Shown piece by piece: positions 5,836-59,099 of a stretch of 64,000 nt of DNA. How positions within the stretch are numbered: position 1 is the stretch's first letter; each line of letters opens with the position of its first letter. This stretch comes from an uncultured bacterium (GTDB taxonomy: Bacteria; Sysuimicrobiota; Sysuimicrobiia; Sysuimicrobiales; Sysuimicrobiaceae), in the NCBI GenBank assembly GCA_964437095.1, contig CAYTFH010000014.1, positions 1,428-65,427 on the forward strand. Direction: 5' to 3'. Made by a program: the position numbers and the translations under genes. The notes below the pieces were generated by a model. It worked only from the letters and a program-made list of their open reading frames with translations. It had not been told where the DNA came from and did no database searches.

Positions 5836-6254
5836 CACGCTCCCTCCGCCGGCTCCCACAGGCACACCACCTCCCCCTCCGCGAGGGCCTCCCCGTGGAG
5901 GTCGGTAGCACCCACCCGGAGGGTGACCACCGGCTTGTCCTGGCGCAACGCGGCCACCTCCGCCCACACGGTCACGGTGTCCCCGACCCGGGTGGGCTTG
6001 AGAAAGCGCAGGCTGCACGACAGGAGGATGGCCCCGGGGCCGGGCAGCCGCGTGCCCAGGACCGCGGACACCCACGCCCCCAGCAGCATGCCGTGGGCCA
6101 CCCGCTGGCCGAACCGGGTGCGGGCCGCGTACACCACGTCCGTGTGGAGGGGGTTGAAGTCCCCGGAAACGCCCGCGAAGTTCACCAGGTCCGCTTCCGT
6201 CACCGTGCGCCGCAGCTCGGCCCTCTGCCCCACGTAAAACGGCGCGGAGCTCAT
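5835..6254 (-). CDS. MaoC-like (R)-specific enoyl-CoA hydratase (hotdog fold)
   Basis: This is the tail of ORF 5835..7085, starting at ATG 6254 (MSSAPFYVGQ...). The motif GDFNPLHTD....A..T.FG..VAHGML is present. The TGATG junction gives a 1-nt overlap with the next gene. Confidence 0.85.
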   Translation of the reverse strand: MSSAPFYVGQRAELRRTVTEADLVNFAGVSGDFNPLHTDVVYAARTRFGQRVAHGMLLGAWVSAVLGTRLPGPGAILLSCSLRFLKPTRVGDTVTVWAEVAALRQDKPVVTLRVGATDLHGEALAEGEVVCLWEPAEGA

Positions 6255-34153: not shown

Positions 34154-34584
34154 GACACCACCGCCGCGTCCACGTGGGAGAACAAGGGCGCCAGGCCCGT
34201 CAGGGCCCGGCGGATAGCGGTATGCATCCCGTCCTCAAAACGGGTGGGGCTGCGGGGATCGTAGGTCGCCGCCGGGACGCCGCGCGCCCCCGCCGTGATC
34301 CGTCGCGAGCGAGGCTCGGACCTGTGCCGAAGTGGGCGATCAGGGGAGCAGCCCCTGGGGGGTACGGACCGAGCCACAGGGCATCACTTCCAAGCGCACT
34401 GGCACCGCGGGCCGCCCCTCCGCGGTCCGACCCCTGCCCCGGTGGGTCGGTGCTCGCCCCCCGGGCGGTCCTGCCCCCGCGGTGGAAAGCCCTGTGGGCG
34501 GAAGCCTACACTGACAGACGAAGCGGCCCTGCGGGACGGAGGCAGGCCGCGCCCCCAGGCGGGACCCCAAGGAGGCAGACGAAC

Positions 34585-35235
34585 GTGGCGGTAGAGGTCG
34601 TCTTCTTCCACGACGTGCTCTGAGCCTGGTGCTTCATAGCCTCGGAGAGGCTGCGGGAGGCCGTGGAGCCCTATCGCCACCGGGTTGCGGTGAGCCACCG
34701 GAGCTTCGCCCTGGCCCCCGACCCGGGGGCCATCGCCCGCATCTTCGGGAGTGCCGCGGCGGGCAAGGAGGAGATCATGCGCCACTGGGAAGCCGCGCGC
34801 CGGCACGCGGGTGCGGGGCGGGGCAGCCGCATCAACGTGGAGCTCATGCGCGAGCGCCCCTTCCCCTATCCCTACTCGTTGCCGGGGCTCCGGGCCTGCA
34901 AGGCGGCCGAGTTCCAAGCGGGCCAGGAGGGTCACTGGCGCTACTTCGACCGGGTGCAGGAGGCGCACCTCGTCGAGTGCCGGAACATCGCCGAGGAGGA
35001 GGTGCTCCTCGACCTCGCGCGCGAGCTGGGATTTGACGCGGGGCGCTTCGCCGCCGACCTGGGCGGGGAGAGGACCCTCCTGGCCGTGCTGGCCGACTGC
35101 CGGGAGGCGGCGCGCCTCGGCATCCACGCGGTGCCCACGGTGCGGGTGGGTCGGCGCCTGATCCAGGGGGCGGTGCCCGTCGCCACCTACCGCGCCGCCA
35201 TCGAGGAAGCCGCCCAGGGAGAGCTGGCTCCCTAG
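34585..35235 (+). CDS. DsbA/FrnE-like thiol-disulfide oxidoreductase with in-frame TGA (candidate selenocysteine, U-A-W-C) at 34621..34623
   Basis: The start is GTG 34585, with AAGGAGG 9 nt upstream. The reading is MAVEVVFFHDVL-TGA-AWCFIASERLREAVEPYRHRVAVSHRSF..., contiguous and in frame with ORF 34663..35235 (the rest of the DsbA fold, ...IHAVPTVRVG...). The TGA replaces the first Cys of the family's CPWC motif. Confidence 0.7.
34624..34661 (+). promoter_or_regulatory. candidate bacterial SECIS hairpin directly after the in-frame UGA
   Basis: GCCU(34624..34627) pairs with AGGC(34658..34661). The core stem is AGCCUC/GAGGCU (34638..34652) with the apical loop GGA (or CGGAG). The loop centre lies about 20 nt after the UGA. 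Confidence 0.4.
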
Positions 35236-44146: not shown

Positions 44147-45606
44147 ATGGCCGTGGCGGTGGTCCAAAAGCGTGTGCGAGAACAGCCGGCCGCCACCCCG
44201 GAGGACGTCCTGGAGCTGTGAGAGCGCAAGGGCGTCCAGATGGTGGACCTGCGGTTCACCGACCTGGTGGGTGGCTGCCAGCACTTCTCCCTGCCCGTGG
44301 AGGAGCTGTCGGAGGACCTGTTCACGGAAGGCGTGGGGTTCGACGGGAGCAGCATCCGGGGTTCCCAGGACATCCACGAGAGCGACATGATCCCCTCCCC
44401 GACCCCCGCACCGCCCGGGTGGACCCCATGTGCAAGACGCCCACCCTGATCCTGGTCTGCGACGTGTACGACCCCGTGACCCGGGAGCGGTACACCCGCG
44501 ACCCCCGGGGGGTGGCGCAGCGGGCGGAGGAGTTCCTGGTCCGCACGGGGATCGCCACCACCAGCTACTGGGGGCCCGAAGCGGAGTTCTTCGTGTTCCA
44601 CGACGTGCGGTTCGACCAGAACGTCCACTGCGGGTACTACTTCGTGGACTCCGCGGAGGGCGCGTGGAACACCGGCCGGGACGAACGGCCCAACCTGGGG
44701 TACAAGCCCCGCTACAAGGAGGGCTACTTCCCCGTGCCGCCCACGGACAGCTTCCAGGAGTTCCGCTCCCAGCTGGTCCGGAAGATGCGGGAGGCGGGGG
44801 TGGAGGTGGAGGTGCACCACCACGAGGTGGCCACCGCGGGCCAGTGCGAGATCGACATGCGCTTTTCCACCCTCACGGACATGGGGGACCGGGTGCAGAT
44901 GTACAAGTACCTGGTGAAGGCCTTCGCCCGGGAGCACCTGAAGACCGCCACCTTCATGCCCAAGCCCCTGTTCGGCAACAACGGCTCGGGGATGCACACC
45001 CACCAGAGCTTGTGGCACGAGGGCCGCAACCTGTTCTTCGACCCGCGGGGCTACGCGCAGCTGAGCGAGCTGGCCCTGTACTACATCGGGGGGCTGCTCC
45101 ACCACTCCCCGGCCCTCCTGGCCTTCTGCGCGCCCACCACCAACTCGTACCGGCGGCTGGTGCCCGGCTATGAAGCGCCCGTGAACCTGGTGTACTCCCA
45201 GCGCAACCGCAGCGCGGCCATCCGCATCCCCCTGTACTCCACCAACCCCAGGGCCAAGCGCATCGAGTACCGGCCCCCGGACTTCAGCTGCAACCCCTAC
45301 CTGGCCTTCGCCGCCATGCTCATGGCGGGCCTGGACGGCATCCTCAACCGCATCGACCCCGGCCCGCCCATGGACGTGGACCTGTACGAGCTCCCTCCCG
45401 AGGAGGCCAAGCACGTGCGGCAGGTACCGGGCTCCCTGGAGGAGTCGCTGCGGGCCCTGGAGGAGGACCACGAGTTCCTCCTGCGGGGAGGGGTGTTCAC
45501 GGAGGACCTGATCGAGACGTGGATCGCCTACAAGCGCAAGCGGGAGGTGGACTACATCCGGCTCCGGCCCCACCCCTCGGAGTTCTACCTGTACTACGAC
45601 GTGTGA
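44147..45606 (+). pseudogene. glnA: glutamine synthetase type I, interrupted by in-frame TGA (44219..44221) and a 1-nt frameshift in a C-run (44392..44395)
   Basis: ATG 44147 ([11 protein letters not shown]) gives [52 protein letters not shown]...[18 protein letters not shown]. The frame then shifts to [19 protein letters not shown]...EAEFFVF...[20 protein letters not shown]...[13 protein letters not shown]...SAAIRIP...RIEYRPPD, ending at 45606. Confidence 0.85.
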
Positions 45607-57413: not shown

Positions 57414-58555
57414 CGGAGGTTCGGGTGCCCGCGTACCGCATCGGCGTGCTGGAGGGGGACGGGATCGGTCCGGAGGTGGTGCCCGCGGCTGTGGAGGTAG
57501 CGGAGGCGGCGGCGCACGAGGCGGGACTTCGGGTGGAGTGGGTGGAGCTGCCCGCGGGCCTGGCGGCGTACGAGCGGTTCGGGTCCACGCTGCCCCAGGC
57601 CACGGTGGACGCCCTGGAAGCCTGCCACGGCTGGCTCCTGGGCCCGGTGGAGCACCACCGGTACCAGGTGCACCGGCCGGAGATGCCCAACCCCAGTGCC
57701 GTGCTCCGCAAGCGGTTCGACCTGTACGCCAACGAGCGCCCTGCGTGCAGCTTGCCGGGCGTGCCCAGCCGTTACCCGCAGGTCGACCTGGTGGTGGTCC
57801 GCGAGAACACCGAGGGCTTCTACGCGGATCGCAACGTCCTGGAGGGCGACGCGGAACTGAAGCTCACCCCGGACGTGGTGGTCAGCTTGCGGTTGGTGAC
57901 CCGCCGGGCCTGCCTGAGGATCGCGGACTACGCGTTCCAGCTGGCCCGCCGCAGGGCCGCGGTTCGGGAGCGCCCCGGCCGCGTCACCGCGGTGCACAAG
58001 GCCAACGTGCTCCGCCGCGGCGACGGCCTGTTCCTGGAGTGCTGCCGGGAGGTGGCCGGCGGCTACCCCGACGTGGCGCTGGACGACGTGCACGTGGACG
58101 CGGCCGCGTACTTCCTGGTCCGGGACCCGGGTCGCTACGACGTCCTGGTAACCACCAACCTGTTCGGGGACGTCCTCAGCGACCTGGCCGCCGGGCTCGT
58201 GGGCAGCCTGGGGGTCGCCCCGTCCCTGAACGCCGGCGACCACCACGCCATGGCCCAGGCGGTGCACGGCTCCGCCCCGGACATCGCAGGTCGCGGGGTG
58301 GCCAACCCCACCGCGGAGATCCTGTCCGTGGCCATGCTGTTCGAGTGGCTGGGCCGACGCTACGGGGACTCCGCCGCGACCCACGCGGCCTCCCTGCTGG
58401 AGCGCGCGGTGCGGCTCGCCCTCGCCCGCGGCGTCCGAACCCCCGACCTGGGGGGCACGGCCGGCACCGCGGAGTTCGCCCGAGCGGTGCGGGAAGCCCT
58501 GCAGCAGGCTACAATGGACTCCACGAAGGGAGGGCACCGTGGCGGGCCGGACTGA
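57410..58555 (+). CDS. isocitrate/isopropylmalate dehydrogenase-family enzyme (tartrate/D-malate/3-IPM dehydrogenase-like)
   Basis: GTG 57410 forms a GTGA overlap with the previous stop. The motifs are [53 protein letters not shown] and [13 protein letters not shown]. Confidence 0.85.
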
Positions 58556-59099
58556 GCTGGCCACCCTGGCGGGCGGCTGCTTCTGGTGCACCGAGGCCGC
58601 CTTCGACGAGCTGGAGGGCGTGCTGGACGTGGTGCCGGGTTACGCGGGCGGCCACGTGCCCAACCCCACGTACGAGCACGTGTGCACCGGGACCACGGGC
58701 CACGCGGAGACCGTGCAGATCACCTTCGACCCCGACCGCGTCTCGTACCGCGAGCTGCTGGAAGTCTTCTTCTCCGTGCACGACCCCACCACCCTCAACC
58801 GCCAGGGGCCGGACGTGGGTCACCAGTACCGCTCCGCCATCTTCACCCACAGCCCGGAACAGGAGCGGGTGGCCCGGGAGGTCATCGCAGAACTGGAACG
58901 CCAGCGCGTGTGGCCCGACCCCATCGTCACGGAGGTGGTGCCCTTCACCAACTTCTACCCCGCGGAGGAGTACCACCGGGACTACTACCGCCGTCACCCC
59001 GACCAGGCGTACTGCGCCGCGGTGATCGCGCCGAAGCTGGAGAAGTTCCGCCGGCGGTACCGGGACCGACTCAAGCGCACCGTCCCGGAACTCCCCTAG
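58539..59099 (+). CDS. msrA: peptide-methionine (S)-S-oxide reductase
   Basis: The 186-aa product has [20 protein letters not shown]...NPTYE.VC.G.TGHAE.VQI.FDP, QG.D.G.QYRS.IF and EYHRDYY. Confidence 0.92.

What the first reader, a model, noticed from the sequence alone, without database searches (positions are those of the whole stretch)
34585..35235. In-frame TGA replaces the first Cys of the CxxC motif in a DsbA/FrnE-like oxidoreductase: candidate selenoprotein (U-A-W-C)
From GTG 34585 (AAGGAGG 9 nt upstream) the reading is MAVEVVFFHDVL-TGA-AWCFIASERLREAVEPYRHRVAVSHRSF.... The TGA at 34621..34623 is in the same frame as ORF 34663..35235, which encodes the remainder of a DsbA/FrnE thioredoxin-fold protein. 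That ORF lacks any redox motif on its own.

Family members carry D-V-x-C-P-W-C at exactly this N-terminal position. The stop codon therefore sits on the nucleophilic Cys, the classical signature of a Sec/Cys pair.

A ~38-nt imperfect hairpin begins right after the UGA (34624..34661). Its core is AGCCUC-GGA-GAGGCU at 34638..34652, with a G-rich apical loop about 20 nt from the UGA. That is where a bacterial SECIS would sit.

Automatic annotation would report only a truncated 190-aa protein with no active site.
Basis: partly seen in the sequence, partly recalled or inferred. Interest (0 to 1): 0.75.

Follow-up and report, generated by a model that had tools for sequence, protein, structure and literature searches.

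The report
Selenocysteine-coding DsbA/FrnE-like oxidoreductase gene
The stop codon inside this gene most likely encodes selenocysteine at the active site of a cytoplasmic DsbA/FrnE-like redox enzyme, so the gene is real but is truncated by gene callers; it belongs to a selenoprotein family described since 2005.

Summary
GTG 34585 (AAGGAGG 9 nt upstream) opens a 216-codon frame with one in-frame TGA (34621-34623). With that codon read as Cys, the product matches Pfam DSBA over its full length. The TGA aligns with the first Cys of the near-invariant FFHDVL-C-[AV]-W-C motif and with the first Cys of CPWC in FrnE (PDB 5cnw).

The strongest evidence is comparative. 25 distinct homologous genes from several phyla, plus L085, carry TGA at this codon. 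All have a start codon upstream; 26 of 27 distinct upstream contexts place it 8-13 codons away, usually with an SD-like motif. The F[FY]HDVL segment before the TGA is conserved and varies synonymously.

A hairpin meeting all four published bacterial SECIS constraints follows the TGA (tip helix 34637-34653, loop GGA, 20 nt after UGA). Its codons show no synonymous variation in 17 TGA genes, and most Cys homologues lack such a hairpin (P = 3.5e-10). TGA also ends 32 of 64 predicted ORFs, so it is not reassigned.

No selA/B/C/D is in the window and the rest of the genome was unreachable. "DsbA-like protein, UxxC" is an established selenoprotein family, so this is a new member of a known kind.

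The parts
34569..34575 (+). Shine-Dalgarno sequence AAGGAGG, 9 nt upstream of the true start
   Evidence: Read directly. It scored 6/6 for SD. Homology with the 88% relative L001 begins at 34567, which includes this site.
34585..35235 (+). Full coding sequence of the DsbA/FrnE-like selenoprotein: 216 residues including Sec13, then a TAG stop
   Evidence: Translation. Pfam DSBA PF01323, E = 9e-18, over residues 5-206. Homologues. FrnE 5cnw aligns over residues 4-207.
34585..34620 (+). N-terminal 12 codons (MAVEVVFFHDVL, strand beta-1) that gene callers drop
   Evidence: F[FY]HDVL is conserved in 27 distinct TGA loci with free synonymous variation, e.g. TTC/TTT, CAC/CAT, GAC/GAT. Compared with L001 there are 2 synonymous changes and 1 Val-to-Ile change.
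34621..34623 (+). In-frame TGA, predicted selenocysteine codon (U13, the nucleophilic position of U-A-W-C)
   Evidence: TGA at the homologous codon in 25 distinct genes and TGC/TGT in 43, and also in L085. It aligns with the first Cys of CPWC in FrnE. The equivalent Cys12 sits at the N-cap of helix alpha-1 in the model of P0020.
34630..34632 (+). TGC, Cys16, the resolving Cys of the U-x-x-C motif
   Evidence: This column is at least 90% conserved as Cys in the family.
34627..34663 (+). Extended SECIS-like hairpin (family consensus structure)
   Evidence: RNAalifold consensus on 17 genes spans alignment columns 7-43, with 14 pairs. On the window sequence this structure has -16.1 kcal/mol, and it is the MFE when only 42-45 nt downstream are folded.
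34637..34653 (+). SECIS tip: 7-bp helix UAGCCUC/GAGGCUG with apical loop GGA (34644-34646), 20 nt after the UGA
   Evidence: 97.5% of cells are paired in 17 genes, against at most 57% in the slid controls, and 2 pairs have double changes. The hairpin codons show no synonymous variation: Ala GCC 16/16 (the 17th gene has Thr ACC), TCG 17/17, AGG 17/17. Pairing probability is 0.96-1.0 once nt before 34634 are excluded. All four bSECIS constraints are met.
34663..35235 (+). Truncated 190-aa ORF as called automatically (P0001); not the real gene start
   Evidence: It has no CxxC. There is no conserved alternative start across TGA loci: the callers chose different starts in different homologues.
34897..34899 (+). 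Family-invariant Cys105 (GL[LR]ACKAAE); role unknown
   Evidence: Invariant in alignments A1, A3 and A4.
35134..35136 (+). Pro184, invariant, in the A-V-P-T motif that I interpret as the thioredoxin-fold cis-Pro loop
   Evidence: Invariant column P184. It aligns with V-P-F of FrnE. In the model it precedes strand 182-185. The cis conformation is an inference and was not measured.

Best explanation
Positions 34585-35235 encode one 216-residue cytoplasmic DsbA/FrnE-like thiol-disulfide oxidoreductase. Its active site is Sec13-Ala-Trp-Cys16.

Proposed mechanism (inferred from the established bacterial Sec pathway):
1. Translation starts at GTG 34585.
2. When UGA 34621-34623 reaches the ribosomal A site, the mRNA hairpin just downstream acts as a bacterial SECIS. 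Its tip is at 34637-34653 with loop GGA.
3. SelB-GTP-Sec-tRNA(Sec) binds the hairpin and inserts selenocysteine instead of terminating.
4. The selenolate at the N-cap of helix alpha-1 replaces the nucleophilic Cys of CxxC. It would cycle between selenol/thiol and a selenenylsulfide with Cys16.

Shown here:
- the reading frame and domain homology;
- Sec/Cys codon homology with many relatives;
- conservation of the TGA, of the upstream coding segment and of a SECIS-compliant hairpin;
- RNA-level constraint on the hairpin codons.

Inferred, not shown:
- actual Se incorporation;
- SelB binding;
- the enzyme's substrate.
For: **Protein family**
- Full-length DSBA domain only if the TGA is read through.
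- The modelled Cys homologue has a DsbA-type fold, closest to YjbH (TM 0.80), FrnE and DsbM. Its first Cys lies at the alpha-1 N-cap.

**Codon homology**
- The TGA aligns with the first Cys of FFHDVL-C-x-W-C in the family and of CPWC in FrnE.
- TGA occupies the same codon in 25 distinct genes from Chloroflexota, Thermomicrobia-like, Gemmatimonadota, Armatimonadota, Actinomycetes and Bacillota assemblies, and in L085. This includes the window's own clade: L001 at 88% and L085 at 72%.

**Upstream segment is translated**
- All 27 distinct TGA loci have an in-frame start codon upstream, 8-13 codons away in 26 of them, mostly with an SD-like motif. The FFHDVL segment evolves as coding sequence.
- Window-L001 homology starts at the RBS (34567), not at 34663.

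**Hairpin**
- It meets all four bSECIS constraints (PMC13188914). The loop GGA is 3 nt, the stem is 7 bp, and GG fills the first two loop positions. The loop starts 20 nt after the UGA, and the energy is -8.4 to -16.1 kcal/mol.
- Hairpin codons GCC-TCG-GNG-AGG show no synonymous variation in 17 TGA genes. Flanking codons vary, and Cys forms use 4 Ser and 6 Arg codons.
- SECIS-like hairpin energy has median -8.4 in TGA genes and -0.2 kcal/mol in Cys genes, Mann-Whitney P = 3.5e-10.
- At least four different hairpin sequences occupy the same position in different Sec clades, including a compensatory pair between L048 and L066.

**Genetic code and Sec use**
- TGA ends 32 of 64 predicted ORFs, so there is no code reassignment.
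- One host (L003) has a second TGA-interrupted selenoprotein-family gene (UGSC) about 2.5 kb away.

**Literature**
- DsbA-like UxxC is a recognised selenoprotein family.
Against: - No selA, selB, selD or tRNA-Sec is in the 64-kb window. The rest of the genome could not be examined, so Sec competence of this organism is not shown.
- No Rfam family matches the hairpin.
- The hairpin is not more stable than shuffled sequence of the same composition (z = -0.05).
- In the free 49-57-nt RNA, a competing fold uses the second GAGGC at 34657-34661. That leaves the family-type tip helix at probability about 0.17.
- Covariation in the tip helix is limited because its core is invariant. Only 2 pairs have double changes, and 17 of 500 shuffles do as well.
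- There is no experimental evidence.
Confidence: 0.9

Rival explanations
1. The gene is a pseudogene, or the TGA is an assembly or sequencing error. Either a Cys codon (TGC/TGT) suffered a nonsense change or was miscalled, and no full-length protein is made from this sequence.
For: TGA is one substitution from TGC or TGT. Sec machinery was not found in the window. The sequence appears to be a metagenome-type contig, and no read data were available.
Against: The same TGA is present in independent assemblies of relatives at 88% and 72% identity, and in more than 20 further genes. The frame is otherwise intact, and the upstream 12 codons are under purifying selection. The hairpin codons are frozen only in TGA genes. 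A random nonsense change would not coincide with a SECIS-compliant hairpin.
Confidence: 0.03
2. The TGA is a genuine stop. The functional product is the 190-aa protein starting at GTG 34663, a redox-inactive DsbA-fold protein, and the upstream 12 codons are a leader peptide or are untranslated.
For: This is what gene callers report (P0001). A GGGAGG lies just upstream of GTG 34663. Some family members have lost a Cys (C-A-W-A and U-A-W-S variants), so redox-inactive relatives are conceivable.
Against: The GGGAGG is only 2 nt from GTG 34663. No alternative start is conserved: the callers picked different starts in each homologue. The truncated product lacks strand beta-1 and the N-terminal part of helix alpha-1 of the thioredoxin fold, mapped from the P0020 model. 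The FFHDVL-x-A-W-C segment is conserved at the amino-acid level across the stop in all TGA genes, which a non-translated leader would not show.
Confidence: 0.03
3. The UGA is read through, but not as selenocysteine. Possibilities are Cys or Trp inserted by near-cognate or suppressor decoding, or Cys inserted by the Sec machinery under selenium limitation.
For: Selenium content was not measured and the Sec machinery is unverified for this genome. From general knowledge, Cys can be inserted at Sec-UGA codons in some systems when selenium is scarce.
Against: TGA ends half the ORFs in the window, so general suppression would be costly. The hairpin matches the SelB-dependent bSECIS model. The position is the classic Sec/Cys redox site of an established selenoprotein family.
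Confidence: 0.04

Closest known systems
DsbA-like protein selenoprotein family ("form 1", COG2761/PF01323, motif UxxC). Sources: Zhang, Fomenko and Gladyshev 2005 (PMC1088965); Zhang et al. 2006 (PMC1794560); 2026 review (PMC13188914).
   Same: Same Pfam domain (PF01323). The literature assigns the family to COG2761, the FrnE-type COG by my own knowledge. Sec is at the first position of UxxC. A bacterial SECIS hairpin with a G-containing small apical loop lies just downstream. Cys-containing homologues are widespread.
   Different: Identity of the subfamily (FFHDVL-U-[AV]-W-C with invariant Cys105) with the published examples is therefore inferred from COG/Pfam and motif, not shown. The host is a 72% G+C organism whose nearest relative is labelled a Clostridiales MAG. 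The Clostridia host named for this family in PMC1794560 is Desulfotomaculum reducens.
FrnE of Deinococcus radiodurans (PDB 5cnw, 5cp1, 5xwh), a cytoplasmic disulfide oxidoreductase/isomerase
   Same: It is the best sequence match among solved structures (E = 8e-9 over residues 4-207). The fold matches with TM 0.75. The active site sits directly after strand beta-1, with no room for a signal peptide. The V-P-T/F loop is conserved.
   Different: Only about 23-24% identical. FrnE has Cys, not Sec, and CPWC rather than UAWC. FrnE (260 aa) carries a C-terminal tail with extra Cys (a C239S mutant was crystallised; the tail motif is from my own knowledge). The window protein ends at residue 216 with no Cys in its last 45 residues.
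YjbH/SpxH (PDB 6gho, 6ghb) and DsbM (5hfg), other cytoplasmic DsbA-fold proteins
   Same: YjbH is the best structural match of the family model (TM 0.80). Pfam Thioredoxin_5 (PF13743) also hits.
   Different: YjbH is a ClpXP adaptor for Spx, not shown to need redox catalysis, and shares only about 24% identity. No Spx-type partner was seen nearby. No selenoprotein forms of these two are known to me.
Bacterial SECIS elements (bSECIS consensus model; E. coli fdhF/fdnG paradigm)
   Same: Located in the coding region immediately 3' of the UGA. It has a small apical loop starting with GG on a 7-bp upper stem, 20 nt from the UGA, with energy below -7.5 kcal/mol.
   Different: No sequence resemblance to the E. 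coli element and no Rfam model hit. The loop is only 3 nt, the lower limit of the model. SelB binding is untested.

Membership tests
DsbA-like selenoprotein family (UxxC, PF01323/COG2761) | DSBA-like thioredoxin domain (PF01323) | tested here: met
   E = 9e-18, 65.2 bits against cut-off 25.6, covering profile positions 2-190 of 191, when the TGA is read as Cys.
DsbA-like selenoprotein family (UxxC, PF01323/COG2761) | In-frame TGA aligned with the first Cys of CxxC in Cys-containing homologues (Sec/Cys pair) | tested here: met
   43 distinct Cys-form genes have TGC or TGT at the same codon. The FrnE alignment agrees. 89 of the 120 top database homologues have CxxC at this site.
DsbA-like selenoprotein family (UxxC, PF01323/COG2761) | TGA conserved in orthologues, with coding sequence conserved on both sides | tested here: met
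   L001 (88%), L085 (72%) and more than 20 other genes. The upstream segment is under purifying selection.
DsbA-like selenoprotein family (UxxC, PF01323/COG2761) | Host genome encodes SelA, SelB, SelD and tRNA-Sec | not testable with these tools
   None is in the window or in the flanks of 26 TGA loci. Indirect support only: the L003 host has a second TGA-containing selenoprotein-family gene, UGSC.
DsbA-like selenoprotein family (UxxC, PF01323/COG2761) | Selenium actually incorporated at residue 13 | not testable with these tools
   Requires 75Se labelling or mass spectrometry.
Bacterial SECIS (bSECIS consensus model, PMC13188914 Fig. 2) | Apical loop of 3-9 nt on an upper stem of 4-16 bp | tested here: met
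   Loop GGA (3 nt) on the 7-bp stem UAGCCUC/GAGGCUG at 34637-34653.
Bacterial SECIS (bSECIS consensus model, PMC13188914 Fig. 2) | At least one G in the first two loop positions (typically G[G|U]) | tested here: met
   The loop starts with GG. Columns G24 and G25 are invariant in 17 genes.
Bacterial SECIS (bSECIS consensus model, PMC13188914 Fig. 2) | [quoted passage not shown] | tested here: met
   20 nt (34624-34643). The other hairpin types in the family sit at 17-34 nt.
Bacterial SECIS (bSECIS consensus model, PMC13188914 Fig. 2) | Minimum free energy of -7.5 kcal/mol or lower | tested here: met
   The 7-bp tip helix evaluates to -8.4 kcal/mol as an isolated hairpin and -9.0 within the 57-nt context. 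The extended family structure gives -16.1, or -17.1 to -19.7 as the MFE of 42-45 nt. Caveat: a competing fold of -21.8 exists in the longer free RNA.
Bacterial SECIS (bSECIS consensus model, PMC13188914 Fig. 2) | Binds SelB and directs UGA recoding | not testable with these tools
   Requires a reporter or binding assay.
FrnE sensu stricto (D. radiodurans type) | C-terminal Cys-containing tail in addition to CxxC | tested here: not met
   The window protein ends at residue 216 (…AAIEEAAQGELAP), with no Cys after Cys171. FrnE is 260 aa and has Cys239 (PDB 5cp1 title). The gene is therefore FrnE-like in fold and active site, not an FrnE orthologue.
Cytoplasmic DsbA-fold oxidoreductases (FrnE/DsbM/YjbH group) | Thioredoxin fold with inserted helical domain, active-site Cys at the alpha-1 N-cap, conserved Pro loop, no signal peptide | tested here: met
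   Model of the 54%-identical Cys homologue P0020 has pLDDT 96.8, with beta-1 at 2-8, alpha-1 at 13-28 and Cys12 at the cap. Foldseek gives YjbH TM 0.80, FrnE 0.75 and DsbM 0.74. Pro184 is invariant. Only 12 residues precede the active site.

The most novel reading that the evidence does not exclude
Within this one DsbA-like subfamily, selenocysteine use may have arisen or been re-equipped at least four times, each time with a different SECIS hairpin:
- GCCUC-GGN-GAGGC at +20;
- GYCGUGGC-GUC-GCCRCGGY at +17;
- GCUCCRCC-GGGU-GGYGGAGC at +34;
- GCCU-AGGUUN-AGGC at +24.

The type-A gene-plus-SECIS cassette carried by the window may have moved horizontally between phyla (Chloroflexota, Actinomycetes, Gemmatimonadota, high-GC Bacillota). 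Recent Sec-to-Cys reversions (L015, L021) still carry the fossil hairpin.

Support for mobility: the window and its 88% relative share only the 640-nt gene in otherwise unrelated contexts, and the 72% relative sits among toxin-antitoxin-like genes. The family could serve as a natural series for studying how SECIS elements are born inside coding sequence.
Probability: 0.4. Interest if true: 0.4.

Novelty: new member of a known kind. Interest (0 to 1): 0.3.

Why it matters
The practical value is in annotation.
- The gene is called as a 190-aa protein with no active site.
- About 31 of the 120 best database homologues are truncated in the same way.
- NCBIfam has no "(seleno)protein" model for this family. 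The best hit scores 26 bits against a cut-off of 190, so pipelines that rely on such models probably cannot rescue it.

Correcting the call adds one selenoprotein to this organism. It also implies that the organism has, or very recently had, the full Sec machinery.

Biologically it is one more example of Sec at the nucleophilic position of a thioredoxin-fold UxxC site. The family-wide data show several distinct SECIS solutions and nested Sec-to-Cys conversions. That gives a tidy illustration of Sec/Cys dynamics, but it does not change current understanding.

Tried and rejected
- **Rfam.** Gathering thresholds on the whole window, and E-value mode on 34560-34720, gave no SECIS family, only noise hits. 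I did not count this against the claim, because bSECIS elements share no sequence (PMC13188914).
- **Thermodynamic significance.** The hairpin z-score is -0.05, which is uninformative at 72% G+C. I replaced this test with comparative ones.
- **Sec machinery.**
  - No tRNA-Sec in the window or in 26 TGA loci.
  - No SelB or SelD motif, and no other credible TGA-split gene, in the window. All 16 candidates were antisense or out-of-frame junk or gene junctions.
  - Looking up the window's own contig through P0001 failed.
- **General TGA reassignment.** Rejected, because TGA ends 32 of 64 ORFs.
- **Periplasmic DsbA.** Rejected, because only 12 residues precede the active site and there is no signal peptide.
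- **FrnE orthology.** Rejected, because the C-terminal Cys tail is absent.
- **Operon context.** No informative partners in the window: an M17 aminopeptidase and a small ORF upstream, and an MBL-fold gene downstream on the other strand. No sigma-70-like promoter or terminator was found for the gene.
- **Whole-window Pfam annotation with pseudo-proteins.** Prepared but not run, because by-eye identification and the motif scan were enough.
Full report
**1. The observation**

- GTG 34585 is preceded by AAGGAGG (34569-34575) at a 9-nt spacing.
- The frame reads MAVEVVFFHDVL-TGA(34621-34623)-AWCFIASERL and runs without a further stop to TAG 35233-35235.
- The mechanical ORF 34663-35235 (190 aa) lies in this frame. 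It is the form stored in the protein database (P0001), and it has no CxxC.
- The core AGCCUC-GGA-GAGGCU is at 34638-34652.

**2. The protein**

With the TGA read as Cys, the 216-residue product matches Pfam DSBA (PF01323). The match has E = 9e-18 and covers profile positions 2-190 of 191. The 12 upstream codons therefore belong to the domain.

Among the 120 best homologues, the N-terminus FFHDVL-C-[A/V]-W-C is almost invariant.

The closest solved structure by sequence is FrnE of Deinococcus radiodurans (5cnw, E = 8e-9). Its DIACPWCYIGKRRF aligns column for column with DVL-U-AWCFIASERL, which puts the TGA on the first, nucleophilic Cys.

A model of the 54%-identical Cys homologue P0020 has pLDDT 96.8. 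It shows strand beta-1 (residues 2-8) followed directly by helix alpha-1 (13-28), with the first Cys at the helix N-cap. Its best structural matches are the cytoplasmic DsbA-fold proteins YjbH (TM 0.80), FrnE (0.75) and DsbM (0.74).

With only 12 residues before the active site there is no signal peptide, so the protein is cytoplasmic.

**3. Comparative evidence for recoding**

About 31 of the 120 homologues are N-terminally truncated gene calls. Nine of them start at V/M-W-C-F, one codon after the first-Cys position.

I fetched DNA for four truncated homologues: L001/L002 (88% identical), L003, L004 and L085 (72%).
- In every case an in-frame TGA sits at the Cys codon.
- It is preceded by F[FY]HDVL and a start codon, with an SD-like motif in most cases.

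A scan of one genome per species returned 80 loci.
- Over all fetched loci and the window, 25 distinct sequences have TGA and 43 have TGC or TGT at that codon.
- The TGA genes come from Chloroflexota/Anaerolineae, Thermomicrobia-like organisms (including the isolate Thermalbibacter longus), Gemmatimonadota, Armatimonadota and Actinomycetes. They also come from Bacillota (a Clostridiales MAG, Tissierellales and the isolate Soehngenia longivitae).

All 27 distinct TGA contexts have an in-frame start upstream, 8-13 codons away in 26 of them. The six codons before the TGA keep their amino acids while varying synonymously, for example TTC/TTT, CAC/CAT, GAC/GAT, GTN and CTN/TTR. The upstream segment is therefore translated in the same frame as the downstream body. 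That only makes sense if the UGA is decoded.

Window-to-L001 nucleotide homology spans 34567-35205 only. It starts at the RBS, and the flanking genes are unrelated.

**4. The RNA element**

The published bSECIS model (PMC13188914, Fig. 2) has four constraints:

| Constraint | Window element |
|---|---|
| 3-9 nt loop on a 4-16 bp stem | GGA loop, 7-bp stem UAGCCUC/GAGGCUG (34637-34653) |
| G in the first two loop positions | GG |
| 16-37 nt from the UGA | 20 nt |
| MFE of -7.5 kcal/mol or lower | -8.4 to -9.0 for the tip helix alone, -16.1 for the extended family-type hairpin |

Comparative tests on the 17 distinct "type A" genes:
- RNAalifold predicts a 14-pair hairpin from 3 nt after the UGA (columns 7-43).
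- The tip helix is paired in 97.5% of cells, against at most 57% when the 3' partner is slid. Two pairs carry double changes, and 17 of 500 shuffles do as well.
- The hairpin codons show no synonymous variation: Ala GCC 16/16 (the 17th gene has Thr ACC), Ser TCG 17/17 and Arg AGG 17/17. Neighbouring codons vary freely, and Cys-form genes use four Ser and six Arg codons.
- The best SECIS-like hairpin has median -8.4 kcal/mol in TGA genes and -0.2 in Cys genes. Mann-Whitney gives P = 3.5e-10, and P = 2e-6 when restricted to G+C of at least 0.5.

The only Cys genes that keep the type-A stem are L021 (fully intact) and L015 (loop GGC changed to UGC). Both are nested in the type-A Sec clade and look like recent Sec-to-Cys conversions. 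L025 has a different, comparably stable hairpin.

Other Sec clades use different hairpins at the same place:
- GYCGUGGC-GUC-GCCRCGGY;
- GCUCCRCC-GGGU-GGYGGAGC, with a G-C to A-U compensatory change between L048 and L066;
- GCCU-AGGUUN-AGGC.

Caveats:
- Rfam has no matching model.
- Stability is not unusual for this G+C content (z = -0.05).
- In the free 49-57-nt RNA of the window, an alternative fold uses a second GAGGC at 34657-34661 and nt 34631-34637. It is 5-6 kcal/mol better than the family-type fold.
- When nt before 34634 are excluded, as they would be by a ribosome with UGA in the A site (inference), the family-type tip has probability 0.96-1.0.

**5. Alternatives**

- *General TGA reassignment* is excluded, because TGA ends 32 of 64 predicted ORFs.
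- *A pseudogene or sequencing error* does not explain conservation of the TGA across independent assemblies and phyla, together with a SECIS-specific codon freeze.
- *A functional 190-aa product* would lack strand beta-1 and the active-site start of helix alpha-1. No alternative start is conserved.

**6. What could not be tested**

- The window holds no tRNA-Sec (only tRNA-Thr).
- It has no SelB or SelD motif and no other TGA-split gene.
- The flanks of 26 TGA loci hold no tRNA-Sec.
- The window's own contig record was not retrievable.

Sec competence of this particular organism is therefore inferred. Indirect support comes from the L003 host. It has a UGSC-family gene interrupted by TGA at T-S-D-U-G-S-C, about 2.5 kb from its DsbA-like TGA gene.

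**7. Comparison with what is known**

- "DsbA-like protein" (COG2761, motif UxxC) was reported as a new selenoprotein family from the Sargasso Sea in 2005, with nine sequences and a predicted SECIS (PMC1088965).
- It was then found in Anaeromyxobacter dehalogenans, Desulfovibrio desulfuricans and Desulfotomaculum reducens (PMC1794560).
- It is listed as "DsbA-like protein form 1, PF01323, UxxC" in a 2026 review (PMC13188914).

The window gene meets every sequence-level criterion of that family, so I class it as a new member of a known kind. It is FrnE-like but not an FrnE orthologue, because it lacks the C-terminal Cys tail.

NCBIfam has no model for it (26 bits against a cut-off of 190 for the nearest model). 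That probably contributes to the recurrent truncation of these genes in databases.

**8. Function**

The function is inferred: a cytoplasmic thiol-disulfide oxidoreductase or isomerase. A selenolate at the nucleophilic position would form a selenenylsulfide with Cys16.

Across the family, recurrent neighbours are HxlR-type regulators (14 loci, 10 with TGA), DoxX membrane proteins and luciferase-like oxidoreductases. Glyoxalase-like (VOC) proteins also recur, identified by eye. These hint at a thiol or electrophile stress role. In the window the neighbours are uninformative: an M17 aminopeptidase, a small membrane ORF and an MBL-fold protein.

**9. Verdict**

- Novelty is low, because the family is known.
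- Interest is 0.3. Its value lies mainly in correcting an annotation and in illustrating several SECIS solutions and Sec/Cys turnover within one family.

Noticed in passing
L003:5953-5955 (minus strand; gene pieces L003:4570-5922 and 5953-6246): A UGSC-family gene (PF24696, E = 6e-40) is split by an in-frame TGA at T-S-D-U-G-S-C, followed by a hairpin. It lies about 2.5 kb from that contig's DsbA-like TGA gene, so the host carries at least two selenoprotein-family genes side by side.
   Followed up: yes
window 34567-35205 versus L001:4506-5143: The window and its 88%-identical relative share only this 640-nt gene (86% nt identity). All flanking genes differ: Pirin/MiaB-like/Ddl in L001, and M17 peptidase/MBL-fold in the window. 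The 72% relative L085 sits between HEPN/nucleotidyltransferase pairs. This suggests the gene moves, or that the hosts are not close relatives.
   Followed up: partly
L017:3037-3048 (Candidatus Pelearchaeum maunauluense MAG): A Cys-form homologue reads TGT GCT TAG TGT, with TAG in place of the invariant Trp of C-A-W-C. It could be a pseudogene, an assembly error or something else.
   Followed up: no
L028:3031-3042 (Chloroflexota MAG); P0050, P0053, P0063, P0077, P0082; L029, L045: Active-site variants exist. U-A-W-S keeps Sec and an intact hairpin but has the resolving Cys replaced by Ser. C-A-W-A has the second Cys replaced by Ala, including in archaeal MAGs. These imply single-Cys or single-Sec chemistry in some members.
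   Followed up: no
L015:131, L021:3019, L025:3031, L061:1602: These Cys-form genes nest inside the type-A Sec clade. L021 keeps the SECIS hairpin intact, L015 has one loop change (GGC to UGC), and L025 has recoded the same amino acids (GCG TCG GCG CGG TTG) and lost the hairpin. They appear to show stages of SECIS decay after Sec-to-Cys conversion.
   Followed up: partly
window 34897-34899 (Cys105), plus His67, Trp68, Gln125, His128 of the protein: A third Cys (GL[LR]ACKAAE) and several His, Trp and Gln residues are invariant across 56 family members. FrnE has Ala-His at the aligned positions, so this is not a FrnE feature. It could mark a second functional site.
   Followed up: no
flanks of L005-L084 (for example L068:2350-3000, L047:93-1055, L047:1540-2500): Recurrent neighbours of the family are an HxlR-type regulator (14 loci, 10 with TGA), DoxX (16 loci, 7 with TGA) and a luciferase-like oxidoreductase (11 loci, 7 with TGA), plus by-eye glyoxalase/VOC and ArsR-type genes. 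None is adjacent in the window.
   Followed up: partly
window 34656-34669: A second GAGGC (34657-34661) followed by GUGGAGC allows a window-specific alternative hairpin with a 13-nt loop. In the free RNA it outcompetes the family-type SECIS tip. It is absent from L001, which has GAAGCC at that position.
   Followed up: yes
window about 44270-45606 (+): A long plus-strand ORF ends ...[11 protein letters not shown] at 45604-45606. My GC3-based gene picking missed it. By eye the C-terminus resembles glutamine synthetase, but I did not verify this. The two short minus-strand ORFs picked there (44322-44561, 44724-45029) are probably spurious.
   Followed up: no
window 58539-59099 (+): By eye this is an MsrA-like gene with GGCFWC, the Cys form of a family that has Sec forms elsewhere. 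I did not verify it with Pfam.
   Followed up: no
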